A DNA stretch of 64,000 bases from Candidatus Uhrbacteria bacterium (GCA_016844925.1 JAERTI010000043.1:2386-66385); one strand, 5' to 3'; shown: positions 16,784 to 43,231, counted from the first letter of the stretch. The notes: generated by a model from the letters alone, not told the origin. Numbers and translations: made by a program.

Positions 16784-17773
16784 CTATGCCTTTACGGCAA
16801 GCATGTAGTGCTCGCTGATATCCTCTTCGAGGAAGAGAATGTTCTTGGTCCAGGCATCGCCATTGTAGTACAGGTATTCCACACCCCTAGACGTGCTGAA
16901 ACCTGCGCTGTTCTGAGTCTGAAAAATGGTTCCAGCAAACAAGATGCTCGTCATCGGTTCGCTTTTCCATCGCTCAGGAATCAGTTCCGGATGCTCGAGC
17001 AGATGATCCAAGACCCTGGCGTTCAACCACGGCTTATCGACCATGAGTTCAAGAGCTTTTTCAAGTGGTCGCCCAACGTGGGCCTTCATGAAGAAGAGGG
17101 CCATCCCGTTTGAGGTGCACCGGACGATGCCATTGAATCGCTTTTCGTGCTCTGTGAAGCCGTCCCGCTGGCGGCACGGCTTATCTGCATCGACAAGCTC
17201 AACGCGCGTCAGCAGGTCATTGTGTCGGTCGATGAGGATCATGAAATCCCATTGACTCCTGCAAATGCGCACCTCGATCTTGTGAGCGGTCGATCCATCG
17301 AGGTTCATTTCGGGGATCAACTGCACCAGTCCTGGCTGCAACAAAGTGGCTTGAGAGAGCAGTTGTTCCAAAGAGGGAAACTGCATTGAGCCGTGCACCC
17401 AATTTGGACGCGCCGCTGTCTTTGGCTTCTCCATCCGCTCCAGGTGTTGGGACAGAAGTCGGATGGCTGCCACCTCAGAGAGGGTAACGATCAGGTTCAG
17501 TCCCAATGAAGGTGATTTCTCCTCCTTCGACATGCGTGCTTTGACGACGCGATTGAGGACGTCTGCAAACGATTCGAGTTCGAGCAAGGGAGTCCAGCAA
17601 TCAGTTGCCGGTGCATCCCACGGAACTCCCCTGCGAAGGTTCAGTTCACCTGAGGTGTGCAAGAACAAACGTTCTTGTTCGGGGTGATAGAAGCCGCTTG
17701 TCTCGAAGATGGTCCAGACACCCATGCGGTACTTGATGTTTTCCTGAGCACCTGAGAGTGCGCTTTTGAACAT
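16784..17773 (-). CDS. hypothetical protein, paralog family B (ELIPExWK ... FxGTIF motif)
   Basis: AAAGGAGG RBS. A TGTGACA-ggg-catGTCACA palindrome lies just upstream. The C-terminal motif is shared with 19554, 26459 and 33193. Confidence 0.5.
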   Translation of the reverse strand: MFKSALSGAQENIKYRMGVWTIFETSGFYHPEQERLFLHTSGELNLRRGVPWDAPATDCWTPLLELESFADVLNRVVKARMSKEEKSPSLGLNLIVTLSEVAAIRLLSQHLERMEKPKTAARPNWVHGSMQFPSLEQLLSQATLLQPGLVQLIPEMNLDGSTAHKIEVRICRSQWDFMILIDRHNDLLTRVELVDADKPCRQRDGFTEHEKRFNGIVRCTSNGMALFFMKAHVGRPLEKALELMVDKPWLNARVLDHLLEHPELIPERWKSEPMTSILFAGTIFQTQNSAGFSTSRGVEYLYYNGDAWTKNILFLEEDISEHYMLAVKA

Positions 17774-17835
17774 CTGTATCCTCCTTTGTGACATGCCCTG
17801 TCACATGGGCGAGCTTATGCTCGAGTAAAAAGATC

Positions 17836-17935
17836 TTCCTCCATCTCCTCTCTCGACCGGAGTCGAAATAGGGGATGGAGTCCCGAGCGCAAGCGTTCAG
17901 GACCCCGTCTTGGGTCCAAGCCGCTTGGCTCGGGT
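17836..17935 (-). repeat. cassette-boundary element
   Basis: ctccatctcctctctcgaccggagtcgaaataggggatggagtcccgagcgc...gctcggg. Confidence 0.7.
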
Positions 17936-17940
17936 TCGTT

Positions 17941-18663
17941 TCAGTCTCCCAGAGAGGGAGGTTCCAGCGAGAGCTGGTCCACGCGCCCGATGTACGGACT
18001 GTGGAACTCGGCCGCGCGGTCGAGTTGCTCGCGCCAGTACTTGTCGTCCTCGATGACCAGGCGCGTCATGAGCGTCGAGTAGATGTCCCAGAACCGGTCT
18101 TCGGTCATGCCGCGACTCGCCATGCCCGCCAGCAAGCGCAGGAGGGTGATGAAGCTCCAGTAGCCCGAGATCGTCCAGATGACGATCCAGAGGTGCGTGT
18201 TGTGCCCCAGAGGTTCATTGAGTTTGGTGAGGAGGATCATCACGGTGGTGAACCAGATGGACATCGGCAAGCTCCGCCACAGGATGAACCACTTGGTCTG
18301 TCGCTCTGCCGTCTTCTTGAAGGACGCCTGTTGACTCACGAAGGAGGGGAGTCCGTACTGAGCGGTGTCGACCATCTCACGCATGGCCGCGATAATCGGG
18401 TACTGGATTCCACGTGCGTGGTTGTCCATGAACCCGAGGATGATGCTGTAGTCCCGCCCTTTCTCGATCATCTCCTTGATCTCGGGGATGTCGAAGTGCA
18501 GGGCGAAGCCACGGGTCAGGACCAGTCCCACCCGGTAGATGAGGTGTCCCAGCGTTCCGGTGACCAGCAGGACCAGGATGACCCAGCCCAACGGCTCGGG
18601 AATGCTCGGGAGCGCCTCGAGCAGCTGCTCGTAGTAACGGTTGAAGGTATCCAAGGTGCTTCT
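17941..18663 (-). CDS. membrane protein (start uncertain; probable TTG start)
   Basis: The track ORF 17941..18873 has an N-terminus that is translated repeat sequence, so it was trimmed. 5-6 TM helices. Confidence 0.4.
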   Translation of the reverse strand, partial: RSTLDTFNRYYEQLLEALPSIPEPLGWVILVLLVTGTLGHLIYRVGLVLTRGFALHFDIPEIKEMIEKGRDYSIILGFMDNHARGIQYPIIAAMREMVDTAQYGLPSFVSQQASFKKTAERQTKWFILWRSLPMSIWFTTVMILLTKLNEPLGHNTHLWIVIWTISGYWSFITLLRLLAGMASRGMTEDRFWDIYSTLMTRLVIEDDKYWREQLDRAAEFHSPYIGRVDQLSLEPPSLGD

Positions 18664-18674
18664 CGACTTTCTCC

Positions 18675-18830
18675 AGCGAACCCCGCTGGCGGGTTTGGTT
18701 GAAGCGGTTGCTCCATCTCCCGTCTCGACCGAAGTCGAAGCGGGGGATGGAGTCCCGAACGTACAAGTGCCGGTTACTCCACCCAACGAGGTGTTGGTGG
18801 GTTCCGGTGTCGTTCGGGTCGTTGTGATCC
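18675..18830 (-). repeat. cassette-boundary element with the CGTACAAGTGCCGG...TGTTCGGG extension
   Basis: Direct read. The extension is shared with the elements at 23150 and 27640. Confidence 0.7.
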
Positions 18831-19330
18831 TAGGCGGATCGGTTGCGGTCGGGGTATCCGGCCGCGACGGCATCGCTGAGGAGGCCGTAGGGCAGGTTCT
18901 TGGCGAACTCCAGGTTCAGGGTCCTTGCCCACATGTGCGGGCTGATCCCCTTCAGGATAGCCCCATCGAAGTCGGTGCTGTACAGGTTGACTCCTTCGAG
19001 ATTCGCTCTCGTGAGATCCGCCCCGGAGAGGTCCGCCTCACGGAGGATGGCACCCTGCAAGTAGGCCTGAGCCAGGTTTGCGCCCTGCAGTCTCGCGCCC
19101 TGGAAGTTGGCCTGGGCGAGATTTGCACAAGAGAAGTCCGCCTCCTGCAGGTGGCTGAATCGGAAGTCTGCACGACAGATGCGCTGCCCCGGGAGCTTGA
19201 TTGCCCCCAGCTGCATTCCTGCCAGCACCGCACTGTCCAGATCGAAGCTTCCTTCAGCGCGACGACTCATCCATTGCTGAATCGCCACCGGTCCGCTGCG
19301 GACGATGGCGACGTGTTCGGAGTTGGCCAT
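18830..19330 (-). CDS. pentapeptide-repeat protein
   Basis: MANSEHVAIV start. Conserved 5' leader with CCGGCACCGCCGG hairpin, shared with 23197..23904. Confidence 0.7.
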   Translation of the reverse strand: MANSEHVAIVRSGPVAIQQWMSRRAEGSFDLDSAVLAGMQLGAIKLPGQRICRADFRFSHLQEADFSCANLAQANFQGARLQGANLAQAYLQGAILREADLSGADLTRANLEGVNLYSTDFDGAILKGISPHMWARTLNLEFAKNLPYGLLSDAVAAGYPDRNRSA

Positions 19331-19334
19331 AAGG

Positions 19335-19525
19335 CCCTTTCTGCCGGCGATGCCGGTCTCGGGTTAGACGCGCAAGACGTCCCTTCCCGATTTTAGGCGG
19401 AGGCTCATTCCTCCATCTCCCGTCTCGACTGGGGTCGAGGTGGGGGATGGAGTCCCGAGCCGCGTATGCGTCGAGTCTCCCATACCGGTTATACCCGGTG
19501 AGTCTCGAGCGATGGCTCGGAAATG
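19335..19525 (-). repeat. cassette-boundary element
   Basis: ctccatctcccgtctcgactggggtcgaggtgggggatggagtcccgagc followed by the ccggttatacccggtgagtctcgagc extension. Confidence 0.7.
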
Positions 19526-19553
19526 AACAGCGGTTGTGCTGTTAGTCGTTGGG

Positions 19554-20198
19554 TTAGTCTTCCCGCAGGACCAGGGAGTCGCAATTTGATGGCCAGTGTT
19601 CGTGGAGCCATTGCTTGCCCCAAGTCCAGATTGGCTTGCCAGAAGTGTCATGACCCCAGGTGAGGTACCGGACGAACAAGAGGTCGTCGCACTGGTAGAC
19701 CGTTCCCCAGAAGACGGTTTTCTTGAACGGAGCTTTCTTCTGGCTGTAGGGAACGTATTTCCAGTCGTTCGGAATCAAGACCGGGTACTTCAGCAAAAAG
19801 TCCAGAATGCAGCTGTTGGGAGTTTCAAACTTCCTATAGGCATCCTGTAGATCCAGACCGGTGGCAGCTTGGCCTGTGGCCGGGTTTAGTCTCCGATCGA
19901 AGTAGTGGTTGAATGCGCTTGGATCCCAGTAACGCATCTCCCACTGATTGTGAAACGCGATGCTGCAGCCCGTGATGGGCATGGGTTCTGCGTTCTGGTC
20001 GATCGGAATGCCGTATCCAGGCAGGAGGACGCGACCGTTGCGAACTTGTCGAAGAGTGTCTTGAACGAGTTGGAGATCAAGATCGCCATTTCTGACACTG
20101 TTGAAGATCTGGTTCAGGTGCGCCTCAACGCGGTCAAGCGAGGGGTGCAAGAGTTCGAGTAGTTCTTCAGGAATATCACCGGAAGGATCACTCATCAT
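19554..20198 (-). CDS. hypothetical protein, family B-like (LIPNDWK ... VFWGTVY)
   Basis: AAGGGAGA RBS followed by ATGATG. N-terminus trimmed from the track ORF. Confidence 0.5.
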   Translation of the reverse strand: MMSDPSGDIPEELLELLHPSLDRVEAHLNQIFNSVRNGDLDLQLVQDTLRQVRNGRVLLPGYGIPIDQNAEPMPITGCSIAFHNQWEMRYWDPSAFNHYFDRRLNPATGQAATGLDLQDAYRKFETPNSCILDFLLKYPVLIPNDWKYVPYSQKKAPFKKTVFWGTVYQCDDLLFVRYLTWGHDTSGKPIWTWGKQWLHEHWPSNCDSLVLRED

Positions 20199-20224
20199 TC
20201 TCCCTTTCGTAGCTCTATTGAAGG

Positions 20225-20340
20225 ACCATTCCTCCATCTCCCGTCTCGACTGGGGTCGAAGCGGGGGATGGAGTCCCGAGCGCGTGTTGCTCAGGTCGTG
20301 CCCATAACCGTTGTTCTTATGGCTTATCGACCCGTTGTCG
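20225..20340 (-). repeat. cassette-boundary element
   Basis: ctccatctcccgtctcgactggggtcgaagcgggggatggagtcccgagcgc. Confidence 0.7.
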
Positions 20341-20378
20341 ATCAAGAACCTGTACGGAGATGGGGTGTACGTGATGAC

Positions 20379-20634
20379 TCAGGGGTTGAGCATGCACCGG
20401 TCGAACGTCACGTTGATGAAGTGCGTCTTCTCAAAATCGACGTCGATGAGCGTGCAGTCCTCGAGCGTGCAATCGATGAACGTCTTTCCCGCCAGTTCTT
20501 TTCCTGAGAACGTGGCAAGGACGATGTGCTCATCTTCAATGGTTTCCACGTCAGCGATGCGACGATTCCATTGGACCGAGTTGTGTTGATCTACTCCTTG
20601 CGCTAGCACTTTTTCAACTATGTCAGTTAGATTC
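20379..20634 (-). CDS. small pentapeptide-repeat-like protein (low-GC cassette)
   Basis: TTG start after GAAAGGAGAG. Qnr-like FSGKELAGKTFIDCTLEDCTLIDVDF repeats. About 40% GC. Confidence 0.4.
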
Positions 20635-20669
20635 AATGTATCTCTCCTTTCAAATTGAAGGCGTTTTGT

Positions 20670-20800
20670 TGCCTCCATCTCCCGTCTCGACTGGGGTCGA
20701 AACAGGGGATGGAGTCCCGAGCGCTGAAGTAGCGTCCGAGACTCCGTCCCGATGTAGATCGGTGAGTCCCGGCATGGCGCTCGGGTTCGTTGTTGTTGTG
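20670..20800 (-). repeat. cassette-boundary element
   Basis: ctccatctcccgtctcgactggggtcgaaacaggggatggagtcccgagcgc. Confidence 0.7.
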
Positions 20801-22381
20801 CTAGGCGGCCAGCACCCTACGCGGATCGAACTTGCTGCGGTTGGGGCGCCGGGGGTTGTATCCCGGGATGGACTTGGCCCACTGGGGCCCGCGTCCGCGC
20901 TTGGTGCGCTGTCCACGCACGCGGTGCATGCCCTCGTGGCCGAGCATGCTCATCAGGTTCAGGTCGATGCCCTCCCTGGCCAGGTCCATCTCCATGTCGG
21001 TGATGGCATCCTCGTCCATGAGGGCCCAGACCTCTTCTTCCTGCAGGTCGACTTCTCCCCAGTAGGAGAGGTCTTCGCAGTCGGCGCACATGCAGAACTC
21101 GGAGTCCCAGTGGCCGTCCTCTTCCATCCAGAGCCAATCGCGGTCCAACCACGATTCGTCGTCGTACCACTGGTCGACGTCGGGGTCCCAGTCGTAGATC
21201 AGGTCCTGATCGAGCAGGTCCCTCTCTTCCTGTTCCTGGGTGTAGCGGCTCATCCAGTAGCCCTCCTCGTCCCTGTCGGGCGTAAGGAGGCTGTTGACGC
21301 GCTCACGCCAGCCGTAGTCCGGATCTTCATCCCACGACTCAGTGGTCATGAAGGAGTATCGCTCTTGGGCGATGGCAGCTGCTTCTTTGTCGTAGAAGCG
21401 ATGCCAAGGTGAGGAGAAGGTGTGTCGCGTTCCGAAGTCGGAAAACAGGACGTCTGGAACCAGTCGGATCTGGGGATTCATTTCTGCGTCGAGGATCATC
21501 TCCCAGAGCAGCTGCTCTTCGCGATGCCAGCTGAAGATCTCTTCACGCCAGCAGACCACGTTGTCACCGAGCTTTCGGATCTCTTCCCAGTACACTTCCT
21601 CGTGCACCGTCATGGCAGCATCGGTCATGCCGTGCTGGTCCGAACTGTCTCGGAGCAGAGCCCCTATCTCGTCGTTGGTGTAGCGGACCTCGGACAGGTC
21701 GTGAACGCTACCCACGGCGTCGGTGGCGAGCCGGAGCTTCTCCGTCTCGCCGACGAACGGGCTCACCTTGCACAGCACCTGACCGATGTCCTCCAGGGCC
21801 TTCCAGCCCCAGTAGTCCAGCGGCTTGCGCTGCTTGCGAGACTTTTGGTTCACTCGACGCTGCCACTGCTTGCGCGGCTTCTTTGCCGTGCGCTTCCAGC
21901 AGGCGGCTCGACGCTCTCGAGCGTTCTCTTTGGCATTCAGTTCGAAGTCCCCGTAGTAGTTGGCGTTCTGCCAAACTCGTCGGTCCGACTTGTCACCACG
22001 AATCTTCAGAGCTGCGCGGCTGTGTGCGAAGCCAGCAAGGTCGTCCTCTCCCAGTTCGGACAGGTCTCCTTGAATCATCTCCAGGGCGCGGGTGGCGGCC
22101 AGGCGCAGGGCGACGCAGAACATGTCTTCGGTCACCGGTTCGTCACCGGCGATGATGTAGCCCTCGGCCCAGTAGGCGGGGGTCCAGACCATGTCGACCA
22201 GGGTCCTGTGGTACTCGAACTCCATGCCCCAGTACTGAACCAGCCGATCAGCCAGAGCCAGGACGGTTTCGTTCTCTTCCAGCTCCTCGCTGTAGGTCTC
22301 GTACGGGTCCCGGTGCCTCATCCAGGCTCCCAGAGCCACGACGTCTATCGGGCCAAGGTTCTGAATGTACGATGTGTCCAT
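20801..22381 (-). CDS. acidic Trp/Tyr-rich protein, family C (C-terminal GRGPQWAKSIPGYNPRRPNRSKFDPRRV motif)
   Basis: 526 aa. The motif is shared with 24576, 40785 and 42683. Confidence 0.5.
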   Translation of the reverse strand: MDTSYIQNLGPIDVVALGAWMRHRDPYETYSEELEENETVLALADRLVQYWGMEFEYHRTLVDMVWTPAYWAEGYIIAGDEPVTEDMFCVALRLAATRALEMIQGDLSELGEDDLAGFAHSRAALKIRGDKSDRRVWQNANYYGDFELNAKENARERRAACWKRTAKKPRKQWQRRVNQKSRKQRKPLDYWGWKALEDIGQVLCKVSPFVGETEKLRLATDAVGSVHDLSEVRYTNDEIGALLRDSSDQHGMTDAAMTVHEEVYWEEIRKLGDNVVCWREEIFSWHREEQLLWEMILDAEMNPQIRLVPDVLFSDFGTRHTFSSPWHRFYDKEAAAIAQERYSFMTTESWDEDPDYGWRERVNSLLTPDRDEEGYWMSRYTQEQEERDLLDQDLIYDWDPDVDQWYDDESWLDRDWLWMEEDGHWDSEFCMCADCEDLSYWGEVDLQEEEVWALMDEDAITDMEMDLAREGIDLNLMSMLGHEGMHRVRGQRTKRGRGPQWAKSIPGYNPRRPNRSKFDPRRVLAA

Positions 22382-22424
22382 CGATCTGCCTTCCTGCAGA
22401 GGGGTGGTGTGATGTGCGAACAGA

Positions 22425-22560
22425 GTGTCTTCTTACACTCCATACGTGTCGAGAAAGCCAAGTGGGTCTGTGCTCCCAATGGTCTTCTCGCCACAGATGG
22501 AGTCCCGAGCCGTAGCGTTTGGACCCCTCAAAAAATATTGTTGGGTCCCGAGTTGGTTCG
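22425..22560 (-). repeat. cassette-boundary element (variant with a CTCTTACACTCCATAC left arm)
   Basis: gtctgtgctcc...ctcgccacagatggagtcccgagccgtagcg. Confidence 0.6.
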
Positions 22561-22604
22561 GGTACGAGTGCTGTGTGCACTCAGGCGGCGTTACCGGGCG
22601 AGGT

Positions 22605-23057
22605 TTACTTCCCCAGTTTTGTTGCGGTGAGCTTCGCTTCAGTCAGTCTTGCATCGGCCAAACTTGCTCCAGACAAGTCAGCGTTGTACAGGTTCACACC
22701 TGACAACTCTGCTCCAGACAAGTTGGCTCCTGACAGGTCGGCTTGTGCCAGGTAAGTCCTGTGCAGTTTCGCTCTGCTTAGGTTCGCCTCGCGTAGGTTC
22801 GCTCTGTGCAGTCTTGCCCAGGAGAGCGTCGCATCAAGCAGATCTGCGCCGGAGAGATCTGCGCTGCAAAGATTCGCTCCTTGCAGGTTGGCACCGCGGA
22901 GGATTATGCCGGACAGGTTGGCTTCAGCGAGATCTACCCAAGGGAGTTGTGCCATGGACAGATCCAGGGTTTCCTTTGGGTGCTCGCTTCGCCACATGTC
23001 GATGGCTTCCTTGCCTCTGAAGGCACGGATTTCCGCAAGTAGTTCCTCTTTGGTCAT
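22605..23057 (-). CDS. pentapeptide-repeat protein
   Basis: Start MTKEELLAEIRAF. A perfect 14-bp palindrome, GCGACAATTGTCGC, lies 25 nt upstream. Confidence 0.65.
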   Translation of the reverse strand: MTKEELLAEIRAFRGKEAIDMWRSEHPKETLDLSMAQLPWVDLAEANLSGIILRGANLQGANLCSADLSGADLLDATLSWARLHRANLREANLSRAKLHRTYLAQADLSGANLSGAELSGVNLYNADLSGASLADARLTEAKLTATKLGK

Positions 23058-23092
23058 GTGACCATCCTTTCCGCGACAATTGTCGCAAAGAC

Positions 23093-23215
23093 GTTCCTCC
23101 ATCTCCCGCCTCGACTTGAGTCGAAGTGGGGGATGGAGTCCCGAGCGTACAAGTGCCGGCTACTCCATTCTGACTGTGTGTCAGGGGGTGCCGATACTAC
23201 TCGGGGTCGTTGTTC
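23093..23215 (-). repeat. cassette-boundary element
   Basis: ctccatctcccgcctcgacttgagtcgaagtgggggatggagtcccgagcgtacaagtgccgg. Confidence 0.7.
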
Positions 23216-23904
23216 GGTGCGATCACTTCAGGGCACGTGTTGTGCCCAAGTGCCCGCAAGTCCTTCTCGCGATTGCTCCAGAGCACTCTCAGGACGTAGC
23301 GTTCACTCAGTCCGTAGGTGTCCCAGGCGAACGTGAAGGCCGTCTGATCTTCCGTGTCCTCACCGCGCAGGTGCGTTTCCGGACAGCGGCCAAGGCCGGT
23401 TTCGTTCACTTCTCGCACGGTCTCCTTACGGATTAGTGCGTTGAGAAGGTTTGTCCGGTTGGTTGCGGGGGCGCTGTCCCAGAGCTTCAGAAACGAGGGC
23501 GCCCAGTTCGTTGGATCCAGGATGGTGTCCTGAATCTTAGCGTCCTGAAGGTTGGCCCCCTCCATGCGCACGCCGTCGAGCTGTGCTCCAGTCAGGTTGG
23601 CACCGACCAGAACAGCGTTGAAGAGCCTTGCTCCGCGCAGGTCTGCTCCAGAGAGATCTACCCCTGTCAGGTCGAGCCCTCGCGGTGTGTCATCCAGGCT
23701 TCCAGCCAGTTCCCAGGCTTCTTTCTGGGAGATCCCTTCAGGGAAGAATCCTTCCCGAAGAAGATCTTCTTCCACCTGCCTAGCAGAAGGCTCGAACAGC
23801 TCTGCGCCAGCGAGGTTCATGGGTTTGCCGCGATGCTTCCTTTTCCAGATCAGAAAAGCGATGTCGCTTTTCTTGAGCGCTTCGACGAGTTTCTGGTCGG
23901 CCAT
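23197..23904 (-). CDS. pentapeptide-repeat protein (subtype 1 C-terminal domain)
   Basis: ORF track; pentapeptide repeats in the middle and a GTIL...LWDS C-terminal domain. Confidence 0.65.
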   Translation of the reverse strand: MADQKLVEALKKSDIAFLIWKRKHRGKPMNLAGAELFEPSARQVEEDLLREGFFPEGISQKEAWELAGSLDDTPRGLDLTGVDLSGADLRGARLFNAVLVGANLTGAQLDGVRMEGANLQDAKIQDTILDPTNWAPSFLKLWDSAPATNRTNLLNALIRKETVREVNETGLGRCPETHLRGEDTEDQTAFTFAWDTYGLSERYVLRVLWSNREKDLRALGHNTCPEVIAPNNDPE

Positions 23905-24110
23905 GAGGCCCTTTCTGCCGGCGGTGCCGGTCTCGGGTTAGACGCGCAAGACGTCCCTTCCCGTGGTTGAATGATCGTCCTCCATCTCCCGTCTCGACCG
24001 GAGTCGAGCTGGAGGATGGAGTCCCGAGCACGTCTTGCTCGGGTCATGCCCACACATACTGCTCTAGATGCCTAGAGTCACGTAGGTATGTGTGGGAGGG
24101 GTGTACAGTT
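23905..24110 (-). repeat. cassette-boundary element plus the conserved PRP 5' leader
   Basis: ctccatctcccgtctcgaccggagtcgagctggaggatggagtcccgagcacgtcttgctcggg. Confidence 0.7.
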
Positions 24111-24125
24111 TGCAGCTAGTTCATA

Positions 24126-24380
24126 CTAGTTGCTGACGTCCACCATGTTGGCGTTGAGGATCAGCAGACCGTGCGGCGTCTTGATGTGCAGGCGATCGCC
24201 CAGCTGCTTGCCCTGCAACGTGCCGGTCGCCAACTCGTAGGAGCCGGAGTTGCGCGTGAAGATCCCCTTCACGATGCACTCGGCCGTGTTCAAGGAGCGC
24301 CCCTCACCCTGAGGAACGCAGCAGACGACGCGGTGAAGCAAAGGCTTGGGAAAGGAGATCAGCGACGGAAGGGTGTTCAT
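24126..24380 (-). CDS. hypothetical small protein
   Basis: 84-aa ORF with a competing plus-strand frame. Weak call. Confidence 0.3.
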   Translation of the reverse strand: MNTLPSLISFPKPLLHRVVCCVPQGEGRSLNTAECIVKGIFTRNSGSYELATGTLQGKQLGDRLHIKTPHGLLILNANMVDVSN

Positions 24381-24454
24381 TTCTTATCCATTCTGCAGCG
24401 AGACATGCTGCGCCTGACTTGGGTCCCGACCCAGATCAGGTTAAACAGGAGGAT

Positions 24455-24575
24455 CATTCCCCCCATCTCCCATCTCGACCGGAGTCGAAGTGGGGGATGG
24501 AGTCCCGAGCGTATGCTGTGAGACCCCGTTTCGAAATATTCGATAGGTCTTTGAGCGTGACGCTCGGGTAGGAGG
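24455..24575 (-). repeat. cassette-boundary element
   Basis: ccccatctcccatctcgaccggagtcgaagtgggggatggagtcccgagcg. Confidence 0.65.
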
Positions 24576-25055
24576 TTAGTGGGGGGCGATCGGATTGTGG
24601 CGGCGGTGCACTCTGGTTACGCGACACTCCCACTGCTTGGCGCAGTTTCGGCTTGAGCGCTTCCAGGATCGTCCGCGGCGCATGCGTCCGAGTTCCTTTT
24701 CGGCGATTTTTCCGAAGTAGCCGGGGTTGTACGAGTCCTTGCGGATTTTGTGTGCGGCCCTGGTGGGACCGTAGGACGAGAGGCTCGACTCGTCAGCGGT
24801 CTCCAACAGGTGTCGGAGAGCTTCCTTCTCCTCGATCAAGCTTTTTTCAGCTTGGTCGACGAAGTCGCTGTACACGTCGTAGCCCTCGAGAGAATCCCAG
24901 TCTTCCTCGATCCAGCTATCTTCCTCGATGTGGGAGGCGTAAAGCTCCTCCCAGAGCTCCTCGTTGTTGAAAGGTTCCTGTTCTTGTTCGAGTTTGGCCA
25001 CAAGGGCCCCCAGATTCTCCGACTGGTAGCAGTCAGAGTGTTGATTGGATGTCAC
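24576..25055 (-). CDS. acidic Trp-rich protein, family C (GPTRAAHKIRKDSYNPGYFGK)
   Basis: GTG start abutting the element. Motif homologous to the C-terminus of 20801 and 40785. Confidence 0.45.
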   Translation of the reverse strand: MTSNQHSDCYQSENLGALVAKLEQEQEPFNNEELWEELYASHIEEDSWIEEDWDSLEGYDVYSDFVDQAEKSLIEEKEALRHLLETADESSLSSYGPTRAAHKIRKDSYNPGYFGKIAEKELGRMRRGRSWKRSSRNCAKQWECRVTRVHRRHNPIAPH

Positions 25056-25180: not shown

Positions 25181-25185
25181 ACGCT

Positions 25186-34514: not shown

Positions 34515-34519
34515 TTGGG

Positions 34520-34725: not shown

Positions 34726-34729
34726 GTGG

Positions 34730-35095: not shown

Positions 35096-35099
35096 GTGA

Positions 35100-35305: not shown

Positions 35306-35307
35306 GG

Positions 35308-35685
35308 CTATCGCTTGTAGCCCATTTCGATGACGGCATCCATGAAGTGCCTCGGGGAGGGGAGCCAGTCTGCCCAGTTCAATCTTCGGCAGTGTACCCA
35401 CTGGGAGAAGTTGTCGTACTTGACGTTCCTCAGGTCCGCGTCGTGGAAGTCCACTCCGTACAGGTTCGCTCCGCGCAGGTCGGCGAAGCGCAGCCGGGCG
35501 TGGCAGAGGACGGCGTCTTCGAGGTTCGCTCCGCGCAGGTCGGCCCAGCGCAGGTTCGCTCCCTCGAGGTTCATGCCGCTCAGGTCCGCGTCTCGCAGGT
35601 CGATTTGCCCGAGCGCCCTGAAGGCCAGGCTTCGTTCCCAGTCGTCCTCGATTTTGAGGATTTCGAGGATTCGTTCGATGGTCAT
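35308..35685 (-). CDS. pentapeptide-repeat protein (first cassette of array 1 in transcription order)
   Basis: ORF track; ADLRGANL repeats. Confidence 0.6.
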   Translation of the reverse strand: MTIERILEILKIEDDWERSLAFRALGQIDLRDADLSGMNLEGANLRWADLRGANLEDAVLCHARLRFADLRGANLYGVDFHDADLRNVKYDNFSQWVHCRRLNWADWLPSPRHFMDAVIEMGYKR

Positions 35686-35689
35686 GTGA

Positions 35690-35760
35690 GCAACCTCCTT
35701 TTAAACAGCTTGACCCAGCTGACGGGTCCGGCGTGGCCGGAGAGGTGATGCGGCTAGGCC
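35690..35760 (-). repeat. truncated leader module at the array 1 boundary (ACCCAGCTGACGGGTCCGG... with no following hairpin 1)
   Basis: Conserved leader sequence that diverges at about 35740 into the core terminator region. Confidence 0.5.
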
Positions 35761-35764
35761 GCGA

Positions 35765-35830
35765 TGAGGTGTGTTGCGCAAAAAAGGCGCACCAGAGACA
35801 CGGTTATTACCGAATCTCTGATGCGCCTTT
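35765..35830. terminator. terminator hairpin (aaaaaaggcgcacc...ggtgcgccttttt)
   Basis: Direct read. Confidence 0.5.
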
Positions 35831-35964
35831 TTCTGTAAAAGCGAATCTATGGTCATCTCGGGGCGGTTAGCCTATTAGGGCGTGCACAGATTCCGCCTAG
35901 AGATGTTTAATTGTACGTTGCAATATACTCCATTTTTGGGGTTTTGTCAAGGTATTATGACAAA

Positions 35965-36000
35965 AAACCGCCTATTTTTAGGCGGTTTTTGCATTTTGTT
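35965..36000. terminator. bidirectional terminator (aaaaaaccgcctatttttaggcggttttt)
   Basis: Direct read. Confidence 0.6.
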
Positions 36001-39469: not shown

Positions 39470-39916
39470 ATGACTCTAGCAAGAGGCGCGATGAAGCGTG
39501 ATGAGTTGCGGCACATGCCGCGGAAGACCACCGATAAGATCGGTGAGCAGGTAGGACGGGAGATCAACGAACGCATGGAAACCGGACGGTTTCGTGGGTG
39601 GCTGATGCGGCGACACTGGGTGTGGCTGTGGGTCATCATCGCGGGCAGCTGGGGACTGGACTTCGTGATCAACCACGCGCTGATGGCAGCCAACCTGGCG
39701 GCCGGACTCGGGCACTGGATCGACTGCATCCTGGGCCCCATCGATGCCGCCCTGGTCGCCGCCGCGCCGCTGGCGTCGGTGCGTGAGCTCTGGCGTCGTG
39801 TCTGGGTTCTGTACGACCGGTGGCGCCTGAGCCCCACCTCGGTGCCTGTGCCCAAGGCAGAGGTCCCCGAAGGTGCGTCAGTTCACGAGGAGGCCACGGA
39901 CGAGTCCGTCGCCTAA
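39470..39916 (+). CDS. small membrane protein (first ORF of array 2)
   Basis: GC-rich, 2-3 TM helices. Start uncertain. Confidence 0.35.
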   Translation: MTLARGAMKRDELRHMPRKTTDKIGEQVGREINERMETGRFRGWLMRRHWVWLWVIIAGSWGLDFVINHALMAANLAAGLGHWIDCILGPIDAALVAAAPLASVRELWRRVWVLYDRWRLSPTSVPVPKAEVPEGASVHEEATDESVA

Positions 39917-39919
39917 GCA

Positions 39920-40070
39920 CAACGGCCCGAGCGGCCTGCGAGTCTCGCAGCGCTAGCTCGGGACTCCATAGAAAACTCTGTGAGGTGCACTCTCCAGCAT
40001 CGCACGGGGATTTCTACGGAGTTTCGACTTCGGACAACAGCAAATCCCACAATGCTGGGTAAAGGATTGG
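39920..40070 (+). repeat. cassette-boundary element, array 2 orientation (CTCGGGACTCCAT...)
   Basis: gagtctcgcagcgctagctcgggactccatagaaaactctgtgaggtgcactctccagcatcgcacgggg. Confidence 0.7.
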
Positions 40071-40073
40071 TCA

Positions 40074-40544
40074 GTGACCAGTCATTCGTTGGAAAGAGCA
40101 ATTCGTTTGGGTCCTGAGACCCTTCGTAAGTATCGGGACACGAATCCCGACGATTGTGCTCTCTGGGGAGCGGACTTTAGCGGGTTGAATTTGGCAGGTG
40201 TTGATCTGTCGGGTATCTCCTGCTGGAACGTGAACTTCTCAGGTGCCAACCTTGCAGGGGCGAACCTCTCTCATGGCTCCTTCTGGAACTCGAACTTCTC
40301 GGGAGCAGACCTCGCGGGAGCGAACCTGTCCAACATGTCGTGTAACAGAGCGTGCTTTTTCGAGGCAAACCTCGCGGGAGCGAACTTCTCTTATACCTCC
40401 TGTTGGGATATGTGCTTTTTCGAGGCCAACCTCGCAGGAGCGAACTTCTCCCACAGTTCCTTCTGGGATCCGAACTTCTCAGGGGCCAACCTCGCAGGGG
40501 CGAGCCTTGGCGGGATGTGGCGTATTGACACGCGTGGAGATTAG
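40074..40544 (+). CDS. pentapeptide-repeat protein
   Basis: GTG start. NFSGANLAGANLS repeats. Confidence 0.65.
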   Translation: MTSHSLERAIRLGPETLRKYRDTNPDDCALWGADFSGLNLAGVDLSGISCWNVNFSGANLAGANLSHGSFWNSNFSGADLAGANLSNMSCNRACFFEANLAGANFSYTSCWDMCFFEANLAGANFSHSSFWDPNFSGANLAGASLGGMWRIDTRGD

Positions 40545-40549
40545 TTCAC

Positions 40550-40790
40550 CCAGAGGTTCGCAGCCTTGAGTTAAGGGTCGCGAGCAAAGACTAAGAGTGG
40601 GTTGAGAGGCAACTCCGAAGAAAACAAACGACGCAAACCCGAGCTTTGCGGCCGGGATCCACCCAGGGTCTCGCAGCACTAGCTCGGGACTCCATAGAAA
40701 ATTCTGTGAGATGCACTCTCCAGCATCGCACGGGGGTTTCTACGGAGTTCTGAACTCTGACAACCAAACCCCAACCACAGGAAGGTGCGA
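40550..40790 (+). repeat. cassette-boundary element (near-duplicate of the element at 39920-40070)
   Basis: ggtctcgcagcactagctcgggactccatagaaaattctgtgagatgcactctccagcatcgcacggggg. Confidence 0.7.
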
Positions 40791-41777
40791 GTGTTCGCAT
40801 GCTACGCCGAGGATCTGGGCCTGACCGGGCTCGTGGACCTCTGGGAGTACCGCTATCTGGCGCAGGAGGAGTCGCCGGAGAAGCTGGAGATGATGTGGGA
40901 CGAGGATCAGCTTCACCGCGAAGCGCTGGGTCTGTGCAACAAGTACAGCCTGGACGAGGAGTGGTCGGAGTCCGACCTGGTGCAGATGGTCTACAACCCG
41001 TCCTGGTACACCTCGTCCTTCGGGGAGTACTGGAGCGAGTGCTCTGACAGTGCGCGCGACCGCTTCTGCCTGATGATGCGCGAGGCGGCCCTGATCGCCC
41101 TGCAGATGCGCAAGGGGATCTACATGGATCCCGTGGACATCGAGCTGAGCGACTGGGACCACGACCTGGAGTACTACTGCGCGAGCAAGGCTGCCGCCAT
41201 GGTGCGCCGGGCTCAGCGGCACTTCACCAAGATCCAGGACCCTGGCAATCGCGAGTCGCGCCGGGCGAGTCGTCTGCACACCGAGGCGGCGCGTGGTCCC
41301 CAGTGGGCCAAGCACAAGCCGGGCTTCAACCCCGTCGAGCACTGCCGTGCTGGCCAGCTCGAGACCGAGCTGTGGACCGAGCAGAACCTGCAGGACGATG
41401 CTCAGGAGCTGATGGCTCGTGACGAGGAAGATGTCGAGTGTGAGCGCTGCGAGCGCGAGTACCGCGAGGAGCTGCGCGAGTTCGAATGGGAGCTGGAGAT
41501 GCTCTTGTACGAGAGCTACTACTGCGACGACCCTTGTTCGTGCTTGTACTGCATGGAGGATCAGGAACTGGACTGGGAGCAGGACGACTGCTGGGATGAT
41601 GAGCCTGGTGACTACGGTCTTCTGGACGTGACCTTCATCGGTCTGAACTCCAGCGGTGGACGTCGCCGGAAGATGGCGCGCGGTCCCCAGTGGGCCAAGC
41701 ACATCCCGGGCTTCAACCCCCGCAAGCCCGAGCGCCACAAGTTCGACATTCGCAAGGTAGCAACCTTCGCCGCCTGA
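40785..41777 (+). CDS. acidic Trp/Tyr-rich protein, family C (ARGPQWAKHxPGFNP motif occurs twice)
   Basis: C-terminus RGPQWAKHIPGFNPRKPERHKFDIRKVATFAA is homologous to the C-terminus of 20801..22381. Confidence 0.5.
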   Translation: MRVFACYAEDLGLTGLVDLWEYRYLAQEESPEKLEMMWDEDQLHREALGLCNKYSLDEEWSESDLVQMVYNPSWYTSSFGEYWSECSDSARDRFCLMMREAALIALQMRKGIYMDPVDIELSDWDHDLEYYCASKAAAMVRRAQRHFTKIQDPGNRESRRASRLHTEAARGPQWAKHKPGFNPVEHCRAGQLETELWTEQNLQDDAQELMARDEEDVECERCEREYREELREFEWELEMLLYESYYCDDPCSCLYCMEDQELDWEQDDCWDDEPGDYGLLDVTFIGLNSSGGRRRKMARGPQWAKHIPGFNPRKPERHKFDIRKVATFAA

Positions 41778-41779
41778 AC

Positions 41780-41910
41780 ACGGGCACATCGCCCAACGAC
41801 CCGAGTGTGAGCTCGAGATTCGCTGACAAGCCGTCAGTACGGAGTCTCGCGCTTAACACTCGGGACTCCACACGACGATTCGTTAACAGAACGAGTGGTC
41901 ATGAGGAGGA
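41780..41910 (+). repeat. cassette-boundary element
   Basis: gtctcgcgcttaacactcgggactccacacgacg. Confidence 0.6.
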
Positions 41911-41920
41911 AGGAGAAGAG

Positions 41921-42271
41921 ATGCTCTTGCTGTTTTTGATCCTGTCGGCTCCGGTGCCGGGGGTCGTGGCTGCTCAGGTAGTCACCATTCCCGACGAGCC
42001 CGGACCGGTCAGGCCCGTTCCCGACGAGCCCAAGCGTCTGGATCCGCCCATCGCAGCGGTTCCGCCTGAGGAACTGGTCTTCGAGCTGGGTCGTCGAGAG
42101 GTGCTGATTCGCGAGGAGGAGTTCATCATGCCGGTGCCCCCCAAGGGTTCCCGCGTCGAGAAGGCCGCCAACGCGAGGATGTACAAGGACTGGCGCAAGC
42201 CCGCGGGAGTTCCGCAGGCGCACCGCCGACCCCACCACAAGACCAGGCGCACCCGCGTCCGGTTTCACTAG
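41921..42271 (+). CDS. secreted proline-rich protein (signal peptide)
   Basis: GGAGGAAGGAGAAGAG RBS. N-terminus MLLLFLILSAPVPGVVAAQ. Confidence 0.4.
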   Translation: MLLLFLILSAPVPGVVAAQVVTIPDEPGPVRPVPDEPKRLDPPIAAVPPEELVFELGRREVLIREEEFIMPVPPKGSRVEKAANARMYKDWRKPAGVPQAHRRPHHKTRRTRVRFH

Positions 42272-42294
42272 CGCAACGCGCATACTGGAGGAAG

Positions 42295-42519
42295 ATGTCA
42301 GGACTCAAGCCGGCATTCGGATCCACGAAAGGAAAAGGAAAGCGCTCGCGCGTGCTCAGGCAGAAGCGGCGTGCTGAGATCCCGTTCGACAGAGCGGCGG
42401 ATCGGGCGCTGCGGGCAAATGCCGCGGCACGCGTGGAGGACACGATCGACCCGGAGATCATCGAGCGGTACGGGGGCAGGGCTCCCAGGGTGACCGCCTG
42501 GCGACGGGAAGACGAGTAG
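42295..42519 (+). CDS. small basic protein
   Basis: GGAGGAAG RBS. In the same cassette as 41921..42271. Confidence 0.35.
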   Translation: MSGLKPAFGSTKGKGKRSRVLRQKRRAEIPFDRAADRALRANAAARVEDTIDPEIIERYGGRAPRVTAWRREDE

Positions 42520-42524
42520 AAGGC

Positions 42525-42680
42525 TGGCTGAGGCTAGTCAACGAATACGACCCGAGCGGTCGGTTGCGAGTCTCGCAGCTGCACGCTCGGGACTCCAATG
42601 GAGACGGGCCAAGGGGGCTCGTTTGCTAGGGGTGCCGCAAGGCATTTCCGAAACCCACCATTCAACCTGTAGGAAGGTTT
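42525..42680 (+). repeat. cassette-boundary element
   Basis: gcgagtctcgcagctgcacgctcgggactccaatggag. Confidence 0.65.
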
Positions 42681-42682
42681 GA

Positions 42683-43231
42683 GTGCTGATCAACGCAATC
42701 ATGAACGGCGAAGAGACCCTGTTGGGTCTGGTGAATCAGGACACGCTGGCGTGCGCGGGTGGCGAGTGCGCCGTGGACTACGACACCGAGGGCGAGGACA
42801 TGCCCTTCATCGCCTACGTGGCCAAGCAGATCCTCGACGCCGAGTACTTCGAGGAGTACCCGATCTGTCAGTTGGTGGACATCTACCGCCGACCGATCGA
42901 GCACCTGGACACGTACCTCGAGTGGATCGAGGTGGCCATCACCGACAAGACTGCGTGCCTGATCCTGCGTGCCGCCGCCCTGATGGCCCTCAAGGCCCAG
43001 GCGGAGGATGAGATGGACCGGGAGTACACCCGCACCGAGCCCACGCCCGAGGACTACGGCATCAAGCCGATCCGCAGCGGCATGGGTCCCCGGTATCGCG
43101 GTGTCCCGGACTACATCAAGGACTACGATCCGGAGGACCGCCTCATCATCGACGAGGACGGCAACGAGTTCCGGCTGGCCATGATCAGCTGGAAGGACCT
43201 GGGTCGGTACACGCGGCAGTACGCCGCCTGA
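42683..43231 (+). CDS. hypothetical acidic protein, family C-related (GMGPRYRGVPDYIKDYDP)
   Basis: ORF track. Motif similar to the family C C-terminal motif. Confidence 0.45.
   Translation: MLINAIMNGEETLLGLVNQDTLACAGGECAVDYDTEGEDMPFIAYVAKQILDAEYFEEYPICQLVDIYRRPIEHLDTYLEWIEVAITDKTACLILRAAALMALKAQAEDEMDREYTRTEPTPEDYGIKPIRSGMGPRYRGVPDYIKDYDPEDRLIIDEDGNEFRLAMISWKDLGRYTRQYAA

What the first reader, a model, noticed from the sequence alone, without database searches (positions are those of the whole stretch)
16784..43231. Several cassette proteins form uncharacterised paralog families carried as independent cassettes
Family B has four members (16784, 19554, 26459, 33193) sharing ELIPE(A/R/N)WK and (I/F)F(F/W)(P/A)GT(I/V)(F/Y). 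Family C has four members (20801, 24576, 40785, 42683): acidic, Trp/Tyr-rich proteins ending in a basic G(R)GPQWAKxIPG(F/Y)NP(R)xPxRxKFDxRxV motif, present twice in 40785, and three of them end in -AA. Family A (11109, 25186) shares RFLLKKNPWEKPLTWRT. Family D is three consecutive 71-78 aa proteins (44887, 45286, 45603) sharing L..L...F...Y....GxEELASVAAAATINNIL. Repeated, divergent copies of the same unknown folds in separate cassettes suggest functional modules under diversifying selection.
Basis: seen in the sequence. Interest (0 to 1): 0.6.

Follow-up and report, generated by a model that had tools for sequence, protein, structure and literature searches.

The report
Paralogous binding-scaffold proteins in CPR cassettes
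A tiny uncultured bacterium (Parcubacteria) keeps two strain-variable arrays of single-gene cassettes, and several cassettes carry divergent, fast-evolving copies of four protein families, of which family B belongs to a very large family that elsewhere includes a protein hypermutated by a retroelement and family A may have a lectin-like fold.

Summary
The observation mostly holds. Families A, B and D are real protein families (shuffle z = 6-49). C1/C2/C3 are related. C4 is only a weak, N-terminal-domain relative. The basic GPQWAK motif occurs in C1 and C3 only.

Each member sits in its own cassette. The cassettes are bounded by a structured ~130-nt repeat, and homology between strains breaks at the core TCGGGA|CTCCATC. 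The host is a Parcubacteria MAG. The arrays lie between recA, rodZ-like/ftsK and rpoB. In close relatives (RecA 98.5% identical to L014) the left array is 3-9 times shorter.

The families are not all orphans.
- B belongs to a family with at least 2,794 clusters (the two named members are Patescibacteria) and no Pfam or PDB match. One member is a bona fide DGR variable protein, with an adjacent RT and a VR/TR pair in which 10 of 11 mismatches fall on TR adenines.
- A is a stand-alone copy of the C-terminal module of 528-699-aa Patescibacteria proteins. Its AlphaFold model weakly resembles C-type lectin domains.
- One Uhrbacteria protein fuses a B and an A domain.
- C and D are lineage-restricted.

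There is no RT, TR or recombinase in the window. Cassette orthologues have dN/dS of 0.30-0.74, against 0.016-0.024 for core genes.

Best reading: a cassette-borne repertoire of fast-evolving putative binding scaffolds. Function is inferred, not shown.

The parts
16784..17794 (-). B1, 336 aa. The B domain occupies the C-terminal ~150 aa (residues 185-335). Single-gene cassette between repeat cores at 17886 and 16676.
   Evidence: Identical product P0002 (329 aa from M8) is on two Logan contigs.
19554..20198 (-). B2, ~214 aa from M50. The listed ORF runs to 20345, but residues 1-49 translate the repeat. B2 keeps most of the Trp scaffold of the superfamily's variable region.
   Evidence: (P0031 = 213 aa from M51).
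26459..27022 (-). B3, 187 aa. Its closest relative is B4. It is followed by an ATGA-coupled 150-aa membrane-like ORF (26010-26462) in the same cassette.
   Evidence: The ATGA overlap was read from the coordinates.
33193..33765 (-). B4, 190 aa. AlphaFold2 model has pLDDT 87.6: an N-terminal helical hairpin followed by a beta-alpha-alpha-beta4 domain.
20801..22381 (-). C1, 526 aa, pI 4.6. N-terminal C domain, acidic Trp/Tyr-rich middle with CxCxxC, and a basic C-terminal RGPQWAKSIPGYNPRRPNRSKFDPRRVLAA.
   Evidence: Its counterpart in L014 (550 aa, ~49-55% identical) is.
24576..25055 (-). C2, 159 aa. It has the C N-terminal domain only, with no GPQWAK motif and no -AA end.
40785..41777 (+). C3, 330 aa. 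C N-terminal domain, an internal partial GPQWAKHKPGFNP, an acidic CxCxxC region and the complete C-terminal motif ending FAA. It looks like a fusion of a short and a long C-type gene.
42683..43231 (+). C4, 182 aa, pI 4.3. A weak, profile-level relative of the C N-terminal domain (residues 32-114). Ends YAA and has no basic motif.
11109..11795 (-). A1, 228 aa. Residues ~60-224 match the C-terminal module of 528-699-aa Patescibacteria proteins. In the AF2 model residues 70-224 have pLDDT ~89-95, and the top Foldseek hits are C-type lectin domains (weak).
25186..25848 (-). A2, 220 aa, paralog of A1 (28% identity in the full-length MAFFT alignment; z = 24.8).
44887..45102 (+). D1, 71 aa. ATGA-coupled to the upstream 80-aa ORF 44648-44890 in the same cassette.
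45286..45507 (+). D2, 73 aa.
45603..45839 (+). D3, 78 aa.
10300..36000 (-). Left cassette array. About 27 cassettes, genes on the minus strand, lying between recA plus a conserved small ORF and the rodZ-like HTH_25 gene plus ftsK.
   Evidence: It is strain-variable.
39900..53000 (+). Right cassette array, inverted relative to the left one, lying between ftsK and rpoB. The same repeat type occurs up to ~45.2 kb; a more divergent repeat type occupies 45.5-50.3 kb.
   Evidence: (family D18). The same location holds small arrays in L005 and L007.

Best explanation
SHOWN. The window comes from a Parcubacteria (CPR) genome. It carries two hypervariable arrays of mostly single-gene cassettes at fixed chromosomal positions. 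Cassettes are delimited by a structured repeat: a long hairpin CCCGAGC...GCTCGGG, then the core ACTCCATC, a variable stem-loop, and GATGGAGGAA. Families A-D are genuine protein families whose members each occupy their own cassette.

Family B is a set of divergent members of a very large family (the two named members are Patescibacteria) that has no Pfam or PDB match. At least one member of that family is the variable protein of a diversity-generating retroelement. Its hypermutated C-terminal stretch aligns with the C-terminus of B1-B4.

Family A is a free-standing copy of a C-terminal module of large Patescibacteria proteins. The B and A domains occur fused in one Uhrbacteria protein. C (acidic, with a conserved basic tail) and D (a ~45-aa conserved core plus a charged tail) are restricted to this clade, apart from one D copy on a contig that IMG/VR classes as viral.

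INFERRED. A and B are ligand- or protein-binding scaffolds. Together with the 14 pentapeptide-repeat cassettes, the arrays act as a reservoir of recognition or binding modules. Here the modules diversify through cassette gain, loss and duplication and through rapid amino-acid divergence, not through a local DGR. What they bind is unknown.
For: Organism and synteny.

Cassettes:
- The repeat core matches 38 times against 2.85 expected by chance.
- Homology between the window and L014 stops at TCGGGA|CTCCATC on both sides of shared cassettes.
- The left array is 25.7 kb here, against 2.9, 6.2 and 8.5 kb in relatives (RecA 98.5% identical to L014).

Families are real. For C, the sense frame is the best-conserved of the six frames.

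Family B superfamily:
- 2,794 representatives at E <= 1e-3 and 1,405 at E <= 1e-10.
- No Pfam match and no PDB sequence match.
- The homologue P0046 lies next to an RVT_1 gene and has a 121-nt VR/TR pair; 10 of 11 mismatches fall on TR adenines.
- The DGR-variable positions fall in high-entropy columns of the superfamily alignment (2.96 vs 2.03 bits, p = 0.003).
- Roux et al. 2021 (PMC8144416) describe CPR DGR targets as lacking recognisable domains and as probable new C-Lec variants.
- The B4 model is confident (pLDDT 87.6).

Family A: homology to P0019-P0028 at 75-92 bits. The model has pLDDT ~89-95 over residues 70-224. Nine of the ten best PDB Foldseek hits are C-type lectin domains, with probability 0.38-0.72.

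Fusion: P0074 carries a B domain and an A domain.

Fast evolution: dN/dS 0.30-0.74 against 0.016-0.024.

Separate lineages: B1 and B2 each score higher against outside members than against the other window copies.
Against: - No binding function has been tested for any of these proteins.
- The B4 model has no structural neighbour in PDB or BFVD by Foldseek (best E = 2 in PDB, 0.47 in BFVD), so a C-type-lectin fold for B is unproven.
- The lectin hits for A are weak (E = 0.06-0.3).
- A and B profiles are not detectably similar (hhalign probability 1%).
- The A-domain match in P0074 is only 25.9 bits.
- Only one of seven distinct B-superfamily contexts examined is DGR-linked.
- B1, B3 and B4 have lost several scaffold Trp residues and the Pro-Ala-Ala end.
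- dN/dS near 0.5-0.7 and a frameshifted C1 orthologue in L010 are also what decaying genes would show.
Confidence: 0.55

Rival explanations
1. B1-B4 are active remote targets of a DGR encoded elsewhere in this genome, and their divergence is produced by retro-mutagenesis.
For: The B superfamily contains a bona fide DGR target whose variable region aligns with the B C-terminus. DGRs are enriched in CPR (PMC8144416). Only 64 kb of a 261.5-kb contig could be read.
Against: There is no RT and no template repeat in the window. The 3' regions of the four genes share no variable-region-like nucleotide identity with each other or with any other place in the window. They differ over their whole length (22-36% identity), not only at adenine-templated sites. 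B1, B3 and B4 lack the conserved scaffold and the Pro-Ala-Ala end where the conserved 3' end of the variable region lies in P0046.
Confidence: 0.08
2. The cassette ORFs, including A-D, are largely non-functional and drifting. They would be remnants carried along by a selfish recombination or repeat system, with 'families' reflecting only shared ancestry of junk.
For: dN/dS reaches 0.74. The C1 orthologue is frameshifted in L010/L016. There are no Pfam, NCBIfam, PHROG or PADLOC hits. Gene callers disagree on the coding strand.
Against: ORFs of 190-526 aa stay open at 22-36% identity. All measured dN/dS values are below 1, and m17941 is at 0.30. Invariant motifs are kept across paralogs. B members still match a superfamily profile at E = 1e-28 to 1e-37. 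The C sense frame is clearly the best conserved. D is 62% identical on an unrelated contig.
Confidence: 0.15
3. The families are components of toxin-antitoxin, defence or anti-defence modules. In this reading the acidic C proteins act as labile, ClpXP-degraded antitoxins or DNA mimics, as in sedentary integron arrays.
For: C proteins are acidic (pI 4.3-5.3). C1, C3 and C4 end in LAA, FAA and YAA, which resemble the ssrA C-terminal degron (own knowledge). Two cassettes hold ATGA-coupled gene pairs. Pentapeptide-repeat proteins, known DNA mimics (own knowledge), dominate the arrays.
Against: There are no PADLOC, Pfam or NCBIfam matches to any toxin, antitoxin or defence family. Most A-D cassettes are single genes with no partner. 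The partners of B3 and D1 have no detectable family, and the ORFs upstream of D homologues in L007 and L031 show no similarity to the D1 partner.
Confidence: 0.12
4. The similarities are chance, or artefacts of translating the inter-cassette DNA repeat.
For: Many spurious ORFs in the window are linked only by translated repeat sequence, for example the 21-member blast cluster. The first 49 residues of the 19554 ORF are of this kind.
Against: Shuffle z-scores are 6-49 within families, against a maximum of 5.5 between families. The similarity lies inside the cassettes, away from the repeats. External homologues exist.
Confidence: 0.02

Closest known systems
CPR (clade 2) DGR variable/target proteins (Paul et al. 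2017; Roux et al. 2021, PMC8144416)
   Same: Family B is homologous over the whole domain, including the C-terminal variable-region scaffold, to a protein (P0046) that has an adjacent RT and an adenine-specific VR/TR pair. Like the CPR targets described in the literature, B proteins have no signal peptide, no TM segment and no recognisable Pfam domain.
   Different: The window holds no RT, no TR and no VR-like nucleotide repeat. The four copies are highly diverged over their whole length. Three have lost scaffold residues. They sit in recombination-type cassettes, whereas the other superfamily members examined are solitary chromosomal genes or, in one case, DGR-linked.
Sedentary chromosomal integron cassette arrays (e.g. 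the Vibrio super-integron with VCR/attC sites)
   Same: Long arrays of co-oriented, mostly single-ORF, mostly unannotatable cassettes. Cassettes are separated by imperfect-palindrome repeats with conserved ends and variable centres. Content varies strongly between close relatives. Paralogous cassette families occur.
   Different: No IntI in the window. No RYYYAAC/GTTRRRY boxes. The apparent crossover lies between two hairpins, so one stem-loop lies upstream of each gene. There are two inverted arrays flanking ftsK. The host is a CPR bacterium.
C-type lectin-like domains (CTLD fold, including the DGR variable proteins Mtd, TvpA, TaqVP)
   Same: The A1 model's best PDB matches are CTLDs (Mincle, BDCA2, DCAR2). 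Both the A and B models show the beta-alpha-alpha-beta4 order of secondary-structure elements typical of CTLDs.
   Different: Scores are below significance (E = 0.06-0.3, TM 0.27-0.48). The B model gives no CTLD hit at all. There is no sequence similarity to any solved CTLD.
C-terminal module of 528-699-aa Patescibacteria hypothetical proteins (e.g. WCV85_00985, WCO79_03245)
   Same: Family A aligns to this module over ~170 aa at 29-34% identity and keeps the LGFxxGAT...GLxLCPxExGPxLRL core.
   Different: A1 and A2 lack the ~450-aa N-terminal part and are carried as cassettes. The large proteins are solitary genes, and the one context examined is not DGR-linked.

Membership tests
DGR variable (target) protein | Sequence homology to a protein with a demonstrated VR/TR pair | tested here: met
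   The B profile finds P0046 at E = 3.7e-28. P0046 has a VR at 8638-8758 and a TR at 9110-9230 in L021, with 10 of 11 mismatches at TR adenines.
DGR variable (target) protein | A cognate template repeat differing from the gene's 3' end mainly at adenines | tested here: not met
   blastn of the 3' 320 nt of B1-B4 against the window found no TR-like copy. Only the 64-kb window could be searched.
DGR variable (target) protein | A DGR-type reverse transcriptase in the locus or genome | tested here: not met
   tblastn with the L021 RT against the window gave no hit below E = 0.49. Pfam scans of the larger ORFs found no RVT domain. The rest of the 261-kb contig is not testable.
DGR variable (target) protein | C-type lectin fold carrying the variable region | tested here: inconclusive
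Integron gene cassette | attC site with R''/R' boxes (RYYYAAC ... GTTRRRY) | tested here: not met
   The conserved ends are TCGGGACTCCATC and GATGGAGGAA. No GTTRRRY box is seen in 36 aligned copies.
Integron gene cassette | Adjacent IntI tyrosine recombinase and attI | tested here: not met
   No recombinase domain was found in the larger window ORFs that were scanned. Both arrays are flanked by housekeeping genes. Small ORFs and the rest of the contig were not scanned.
Integron gene cassette | Co-oriented single-ORF units bounded by structured imperfect palindromes, with content variable between strains | tested here: met
C-type lectin-like domain (family A) | Significant structural similarity to solved CTLDs | tested here: inconclusive
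   Nine of the ten best Foldseek hits are CTLDs, but with E = 0.06-0.3, probability 0.38-0.72 and TM(target) 0.39-0.47.
Toxin-antitoxin / anti-phage defence protein | Match to a known toxin, antitoxin or defence family model | tested here: not met
   No hits in Pfam, PADLOC, NCBIfam or PHROGs, apart from one marginal PHROG hit of unknown function.

The most novel reading that the evidence does not exclude
CPR bacteria of this clade possess a non-integron cassette system: a ~130-nt two-hairpin site with its crossover at TCGGGA|CTCCATC, and an unidentified recombinase. It assembles and shuffles a repertoire of binding scaffolds, namely DGR-variable-protein-like (B), lectin-like (A) and pentapeptide-repeat proteins, plus lineage-specific partners (C, D). 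This would be a recombination-based counterpart to DGR hypermutation for generating recognition diversity in ultra-small episymbionts.
Probability: 0.25. Interest if true: 0.85.

Novelty: new variant of a known kind. Interest (0 to 1): 0.6.

Why it matters
CPR bacteria have tiny genomes and depend on other cells, yet this strain devotes roughly 38 kb of a 64-kb stretch to strain-variable cassettes.

The recurrent cassette proteins include relatives of DGR variable proteins and a possibly lectin-like module. That ties two diversification routes to one kind of scaffold: retro-mutagenesis and cassette shuffling. It also gives concrete, small proteins (190-230 aa, with confident models) for testing what CPR 'dark matter' recognition proteins bind.

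The work also shows that the B family has thousands of members and a confident predicted fold, but no Pfam entry and no detectable structural neighbour. It is therefore a candidate for a new domain family.

Finally, gene callers mis-strand the acidic C genes, which hides them from protein databases.

Tried and rejected
- Pfam, NCBIfam, PHROGs and PADLOC scans of all families gave nothing usable.
- Word-indexed protein searches made B and C look like near-orphans. For B this was an artefact of low sensitivity, overturned by the exhaustive HMM search. No exhaustive search could be run for A, C or D.
- PDB sequence searches with A, B, C and D profiles gave no credible hit. D's best hits are designed repeat proteins at E = 0.004-0.007.
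- hhalign of A against B was not significant.
- A repeat-pattern scan of genome contigs gave only a chance hit in a Lachnospiraceae MAG. The metagenome scan gave two true relatives, L005 and L006.
- tblastn of C1, B4 and D3 against GenBank phages gave no match. A viral-contig scan with the C alignment could not be run.
- I considered that the -AA ends of the C proteins reflect a shared 3' DNA module. That was rejected: there is no conserved GCCGCCTRRMACA-type element.
- I considered that the A-type large proteins are DGR targets. No RT lies within 8 kb of P0025.
- The A2-D1 cross-family similarity (z = 5.5) was not followed to significance and is treated as chance.
- The paper by Paul et al. 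2017 could not be read.

Full report
**Context**

The window comes from a 261.5-kb contig of a Parcubacteria-group (CPR/Patescibacteria) MAG. Its RecA falls in a 90%-identity cluster with NQV89042.1, annotated 'Parcubacteria group bacterium'.

Housekeeping genes frame two gene arrays:
- recA, 9219-10247, minus strand.
- A rodZ-like HTH_25 gene, 36000-36689, minus strand.
- ftsK, 36702-39482, minus strand.
- rpoB/rpoC, from 53776, plus strand.

The left array spans ~10.3-36.0 kb with genes on the minus strand. The right array spans ~39.9-53 kb with genes on the plus strand.

**The repeat that delimits cassettes**

The arrays are punctuated by a repeat whose 13-nt core, GATGGAGTCCCGA, occurs 38 times against 2.85 expected by chance. 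On the gene strand each unit reads, in order:
- a long composite hairpin closed by CCCGAGC...GCTCGGG;
- the core A-CTCCATC;
- a variable stem-loop of four length classes, 28-65 nt;
- GATGGAG-GAA.

Cassettes shared with a close relative (L014) are homologous up to TCGGGA|CTCCATC and not beyond, on both sides. The stem-loop therefore travels with the downstream gene and the long hairpin with the upstream gene.

The stem-loop is more stable on the gene strand in 32 of 47 distinct copies (Wilcoxon p = 0.003).

I found no GTTRRRY/RYYYAAC boxes, no integrase and no reverse transcriptase in the window. Rfam found only two tRNAs.

**The arrays are strain-variable**

Relatives whose RecA is at least 90% identical keep the same flanking genes. 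Their left array is only 2.9 kb (L007), 6.2 kb (L008) or 8.5 kb (L010, L014-L016, L018), against 25.7 kb here. They use the same repeat. L005 and L007 have small arrays at the ftsK-rpoB position.

'Cassette' is therefore a fair description. Integron membership is not established.

**Checking the observation**

All 13 ORFs exist. Within-family local alignment scores were compared with 200-500 shuffles:

| Pair(s) | z-score |
|---|---|
| A1-A2 | 24.8 |
| B pairs | 6.4-48.6 |
| D pairs | 16.6-23.6 |
| C1-C3 | 13.3 |
| C1-C2 | 10.7 |
| Highest of 62 cross-family pairs | 5.5 |

C4 is not significant in any pairwise comparison. It does score 16.4 bits against an HMM of the C N-terminal domain built without it. 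The best of 2000 shuffles scored 6.4 bits, and C4 was the only extra hit among 155 array ORFs.

The basic GPQWAK...NPR motif is confined to C1 and C3 (two copies in C3) and to homologues in L007 and L014. C2 and C4 lack it. Three of the four C proteins do end in -AA.

The N-terminal 49 residues of the 19554 ORF are translated repeat.

Each family member lies between successive repeat cores. B3 and D1 share their cassettes with an ATGA-coupled second ORF.

For the acidic C genes, long antisense ORFs exist, and a public gene call in L007 took the wrong strand. Six-frame comparison shows the sense frame is always the best conserved: 141 vs 93, 123 vs 60 and 75 vs 37 bits.

An all-against-all search shows that the largest family in the arrays is in fact 14 pentapeptide-repeat proteins.

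**Family B**

Word-indexed searching suggested an orphan family. An exhaustive profile search of 1.84 billion cluster representatives overturned that. It found 2,794 proteins at E <= 1e-3 and 1,405 at E <= 1e-10. Most are 150-250 aa, and some carry 2-4 tandem domains.

The consensus is ...DCDADPFxPxGWxVEEHxKGG...VLNANVLDYLLxHPxLIPExWK...IFFWGTIYR...VRxLxWxGxxWxWxxxWLxxxWxxxxPAA. The named members are from Ca. Uhrbacteria and 'Patescibacteria group'.

The family has no Pfam model and no relative among PDB sequences.

One member, P0046, lies 0.9 kb upstream of an RVT_1 gene. The last 121 nt of its coding sequence are repeated 472 nt downstream at 92% identity, and 10 of the 11 differences fall on adenines of the downstream copy. 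That is the signature of a diversity-generating retroelement, so P0046 is a DGR variable protein.

Its DGR-variable positions coincide with high-entropy columns of the superfamily alignment (2.96 vs 2.03 bits, p = 0.003), set within a conserved Trp/Leu/Pro-Ala-Ala scaffold. This matches the description by Roux et al. 2021 of CPR DGR targets as proteins without recognisable domains that probably represent new C-Lec variants (PMC8144416).

The other six distinct contexts examined are not DGR-linked.

In the window:
- There is no RT and no TR.
- B1, B3 and B4 have lost several scaffold residues. B2 keeps most of them.
- B3 and B4 are each other's closest relatives. B1 and B2 are each closer to outside members than to the other window copies. 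Three lineages of the superfamily are therefore present.

**Family A**

A1 and A2, and a cassette protein in L014, match the C-terminal ~170 aa of 528-699-aa Patescibacteria hypothetical proteins at 75-92 bits and 31-46% identity.

The A1 model is confident over residues 70-224. Nine of its ten best PDB matches are C-type lectin domains (Mincle, BDCA2, DCAR2), and the tenth is the Bdellovibrio Bd2740 C-terminal domain. The lectin matches have E = 0.06-0.3 and probability 0.38-0.72. This is suggestive, not significant.

The Uhrbacteria protein P0074 (KKR04190.1) carries a B domain at residues 57-197 and an A domain at 218-340 (25.9 bits). That is modest evidence that the two modules work together. 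Their profiles are not detectably related.

**Families C and D**

C proteins are acidic (pI 4.3-5.3, about 20% Asp+Glu, 7.5-9% Trp+Tyr). They are modular:
- a ~170-190-aa N-terminal domain, shared by all including C2 and weakly by C4;
- an acidic CxCxxC region;
- the basic tail.

Homologues occur only in arrays of related genomes: L007 (502 aa, right array) and L014 (550 aa, left array). The L014 gene is split by a frameshift in L010/L016.

The motif-coding DNA is 95% identical over 43 nt between C3's internal copy and the L007 gene. This hints at recombination between C genes.

D proteins share a ~45-aa conserved core followed by a charged tail. One homologue is in the L007 array. Another, 62% identical, lies on a repeat-free IMG/VR contig.

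No Pfam, PDB, PHROG, PADLOC or phage matches exist for C or D. No exhaustive search could be run for them.

**Rate of evolution**

Window versus L014:

| Genes | dN/dS | dS |
|---|---|---|
| Core (recA, rodZ-like, efp) | 0.016-0.024 | 0.35-0.77 |
| Shared cassette genes | 0.30-0.74 | 0.25-0.72 |
| C1 specifically | 0.52 | within the cassette range |

That is a 12- to 46-fold elevation. All values stay below 1, so strongly relaxed or partly positive selection is shown, but not diversifying selection as such.

**Interpretation**

The best-supported reading is as follows. The arrays are a strain-variable, recombination-built reservoir. Its recurrent members include DGR-variable-protein-like (B), possibly lectin-like (A) and pentapeptide-repeat scaffolds. 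These are protein types whose known relatives act by binding other molecules.

Here diversity arises through cassette turnover and rapid divergence rather than through a local DGR. The binding function and its targets are inferred, not shown.

Rivals:
- Remote DGR targeting.
- Drifting junk.
- Toxin-antitoxin or defence modules.
- Chance.

The chance explanation is excluded except for C4. Remote DGR targeting cannot be fully excluded without the rest of the genome.

**Verdict**

Family B is re-assigned from 'unknown' to a huge unnamed family (named members are Patescibacteria) that includes a DGR target.

The protein families rate as a new variant of known kinds. The cassette system that carries them looks more unusual and deserves its own study.

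Noticed in passing
window 10300-36000 (-) and 39900-53000 (+); junctions e.g. 20279 and 22508: The cassette boundary element is not a canonical attC. It is a two-hairpin, ~130-nt site with the conserved core TCGGGA|CTCCATC, and homology with a sister genome breaks exactly there. The stem-loop (four length classes with different sequences but conserved pairing) belongs to the downstream gene. No integrase is present in the window. The two arrays are inverted around ftsK.
   Followed up: partly
window 11957-12511, 14032-14517, 15110-15769, 16006-16584, 18830-19330, 22605-23102, 23197-23904, 30643-31386, 34008-34514, 34730-35095, 35308-35685 (-); 40074-40544, 46192-47046, 48438-49127 (+): Fourteen pentapeptide-repeat proteins, each in its own cassette, form the largest paralog family of the arrays. 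Related arrays (L007, L008, L014) also carry them.
   Followed up: partly
L007 7085-10001, L008 3806-10001, L014 1467-10001 versus window 10300-36000: Between the same flanking genes (the rodZ-like gene and recA), the array is 2.9, 6.2 or 8.5 kb in genomes with >=90% identical RecA, against 25.7 kb here. A subset of cassettes is shared in partly conserved order, with many insertions in the window.
   Followed up: partly
stem-loop 3' arms, e.g. window 11795-11803 and 17838-17847: The conserved 3' arm GATGGAGGAA contains a Shine-Dalgarno-like GGAGG and an ATG. The A1 ORF and several others (starting MEE...) begin at this ATG. In other cassettes it is out of frame or ~45 nt upstream of the start. 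This raises the possibility of structure-controlled translation.
   Followed up: no
window 26010-26462 (-) with B3; window 44648-44890 (+) with D1: There are two two-gene cassettes with ATGA stop/start overlap: B3 followed by a 150-aa hydrophobic protein, and an 80-aa ORF followed by D1. Neither partner has any Pfam match.
   Followed up: partly
L023 8001-9116 (P0074, Ca. Uhrbacteria KKR04190.1 / A0A0G0Q199): A single protein combines a B-type domain (residues 57-197) with an A-type domain (residues 218-340, 25.9 bits). This is a possible Rosetta-stone link between the two cassette families.
   Followed up: partly
L007 2025-3725 (+) versus 2034-3542 (-); window 21422-22630 (+), 40740-41789 (-): Long antisense ORFs lie opposite the acidic C genes. 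The public gene call in L007 is on the antisense strand, so true C homologues are under-represented in protein databases.
   Followed up: yes
L010 4511-5692 and 5670-6149 versus L014 3994-5646: The C1 orthologue is intact (550 aa) in one assembly and split into 393 + 159 aa in another assembly from the same RecA genotype. This is either a population frameshift polymorphism or an assembly error.
   Followed up: no
window 41277-41319 versus L007 ~2055-2097: The DNA encoding RGPQWAKHKPGFNP is 95% identical over 43 nt between C3's internal motif copy and the L007 C gene, while the flanks are diverged. This suggests gene conversion or a constraint at the nucleotide level.
   Followed up: no
window 36702-39482 (-): FtsK carries two long Glu/Asp-rich low-complexity stretches, one in the linker and one at the C-terminus. 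These produce the GAA/GAG-type tandem repeats seen in the repeat scan.
   Followed up: no
window 10313-10546 (-); L007 9722-9934; L008 9737-9934; L014 9639-9935: A conserved 65-98-aa ORF (83-87% identical) always sits between the array end and recA. It has no Pfam hit and its dN/dS is 0.17. It might mark the fixed end of the array.
   Followed up: no
window 45546-50238 (repeat family D18): The distal part of the right array uses a second, divergent repeat type (…CCCATCT..GATC..GTGAGATGGG). This suggests two generations or classes of the boundary element.
   Followed up: no
L031 5001-5141 (IMGVR_UViG_3300040985_002603): A D-family homologue (62% identical, with its own GGAGG-ATG start) lies at the end of a contig that IMG/VR classes as viral. 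The contig has 55% GC and none of the cassette repeats.
   Followed up: partly
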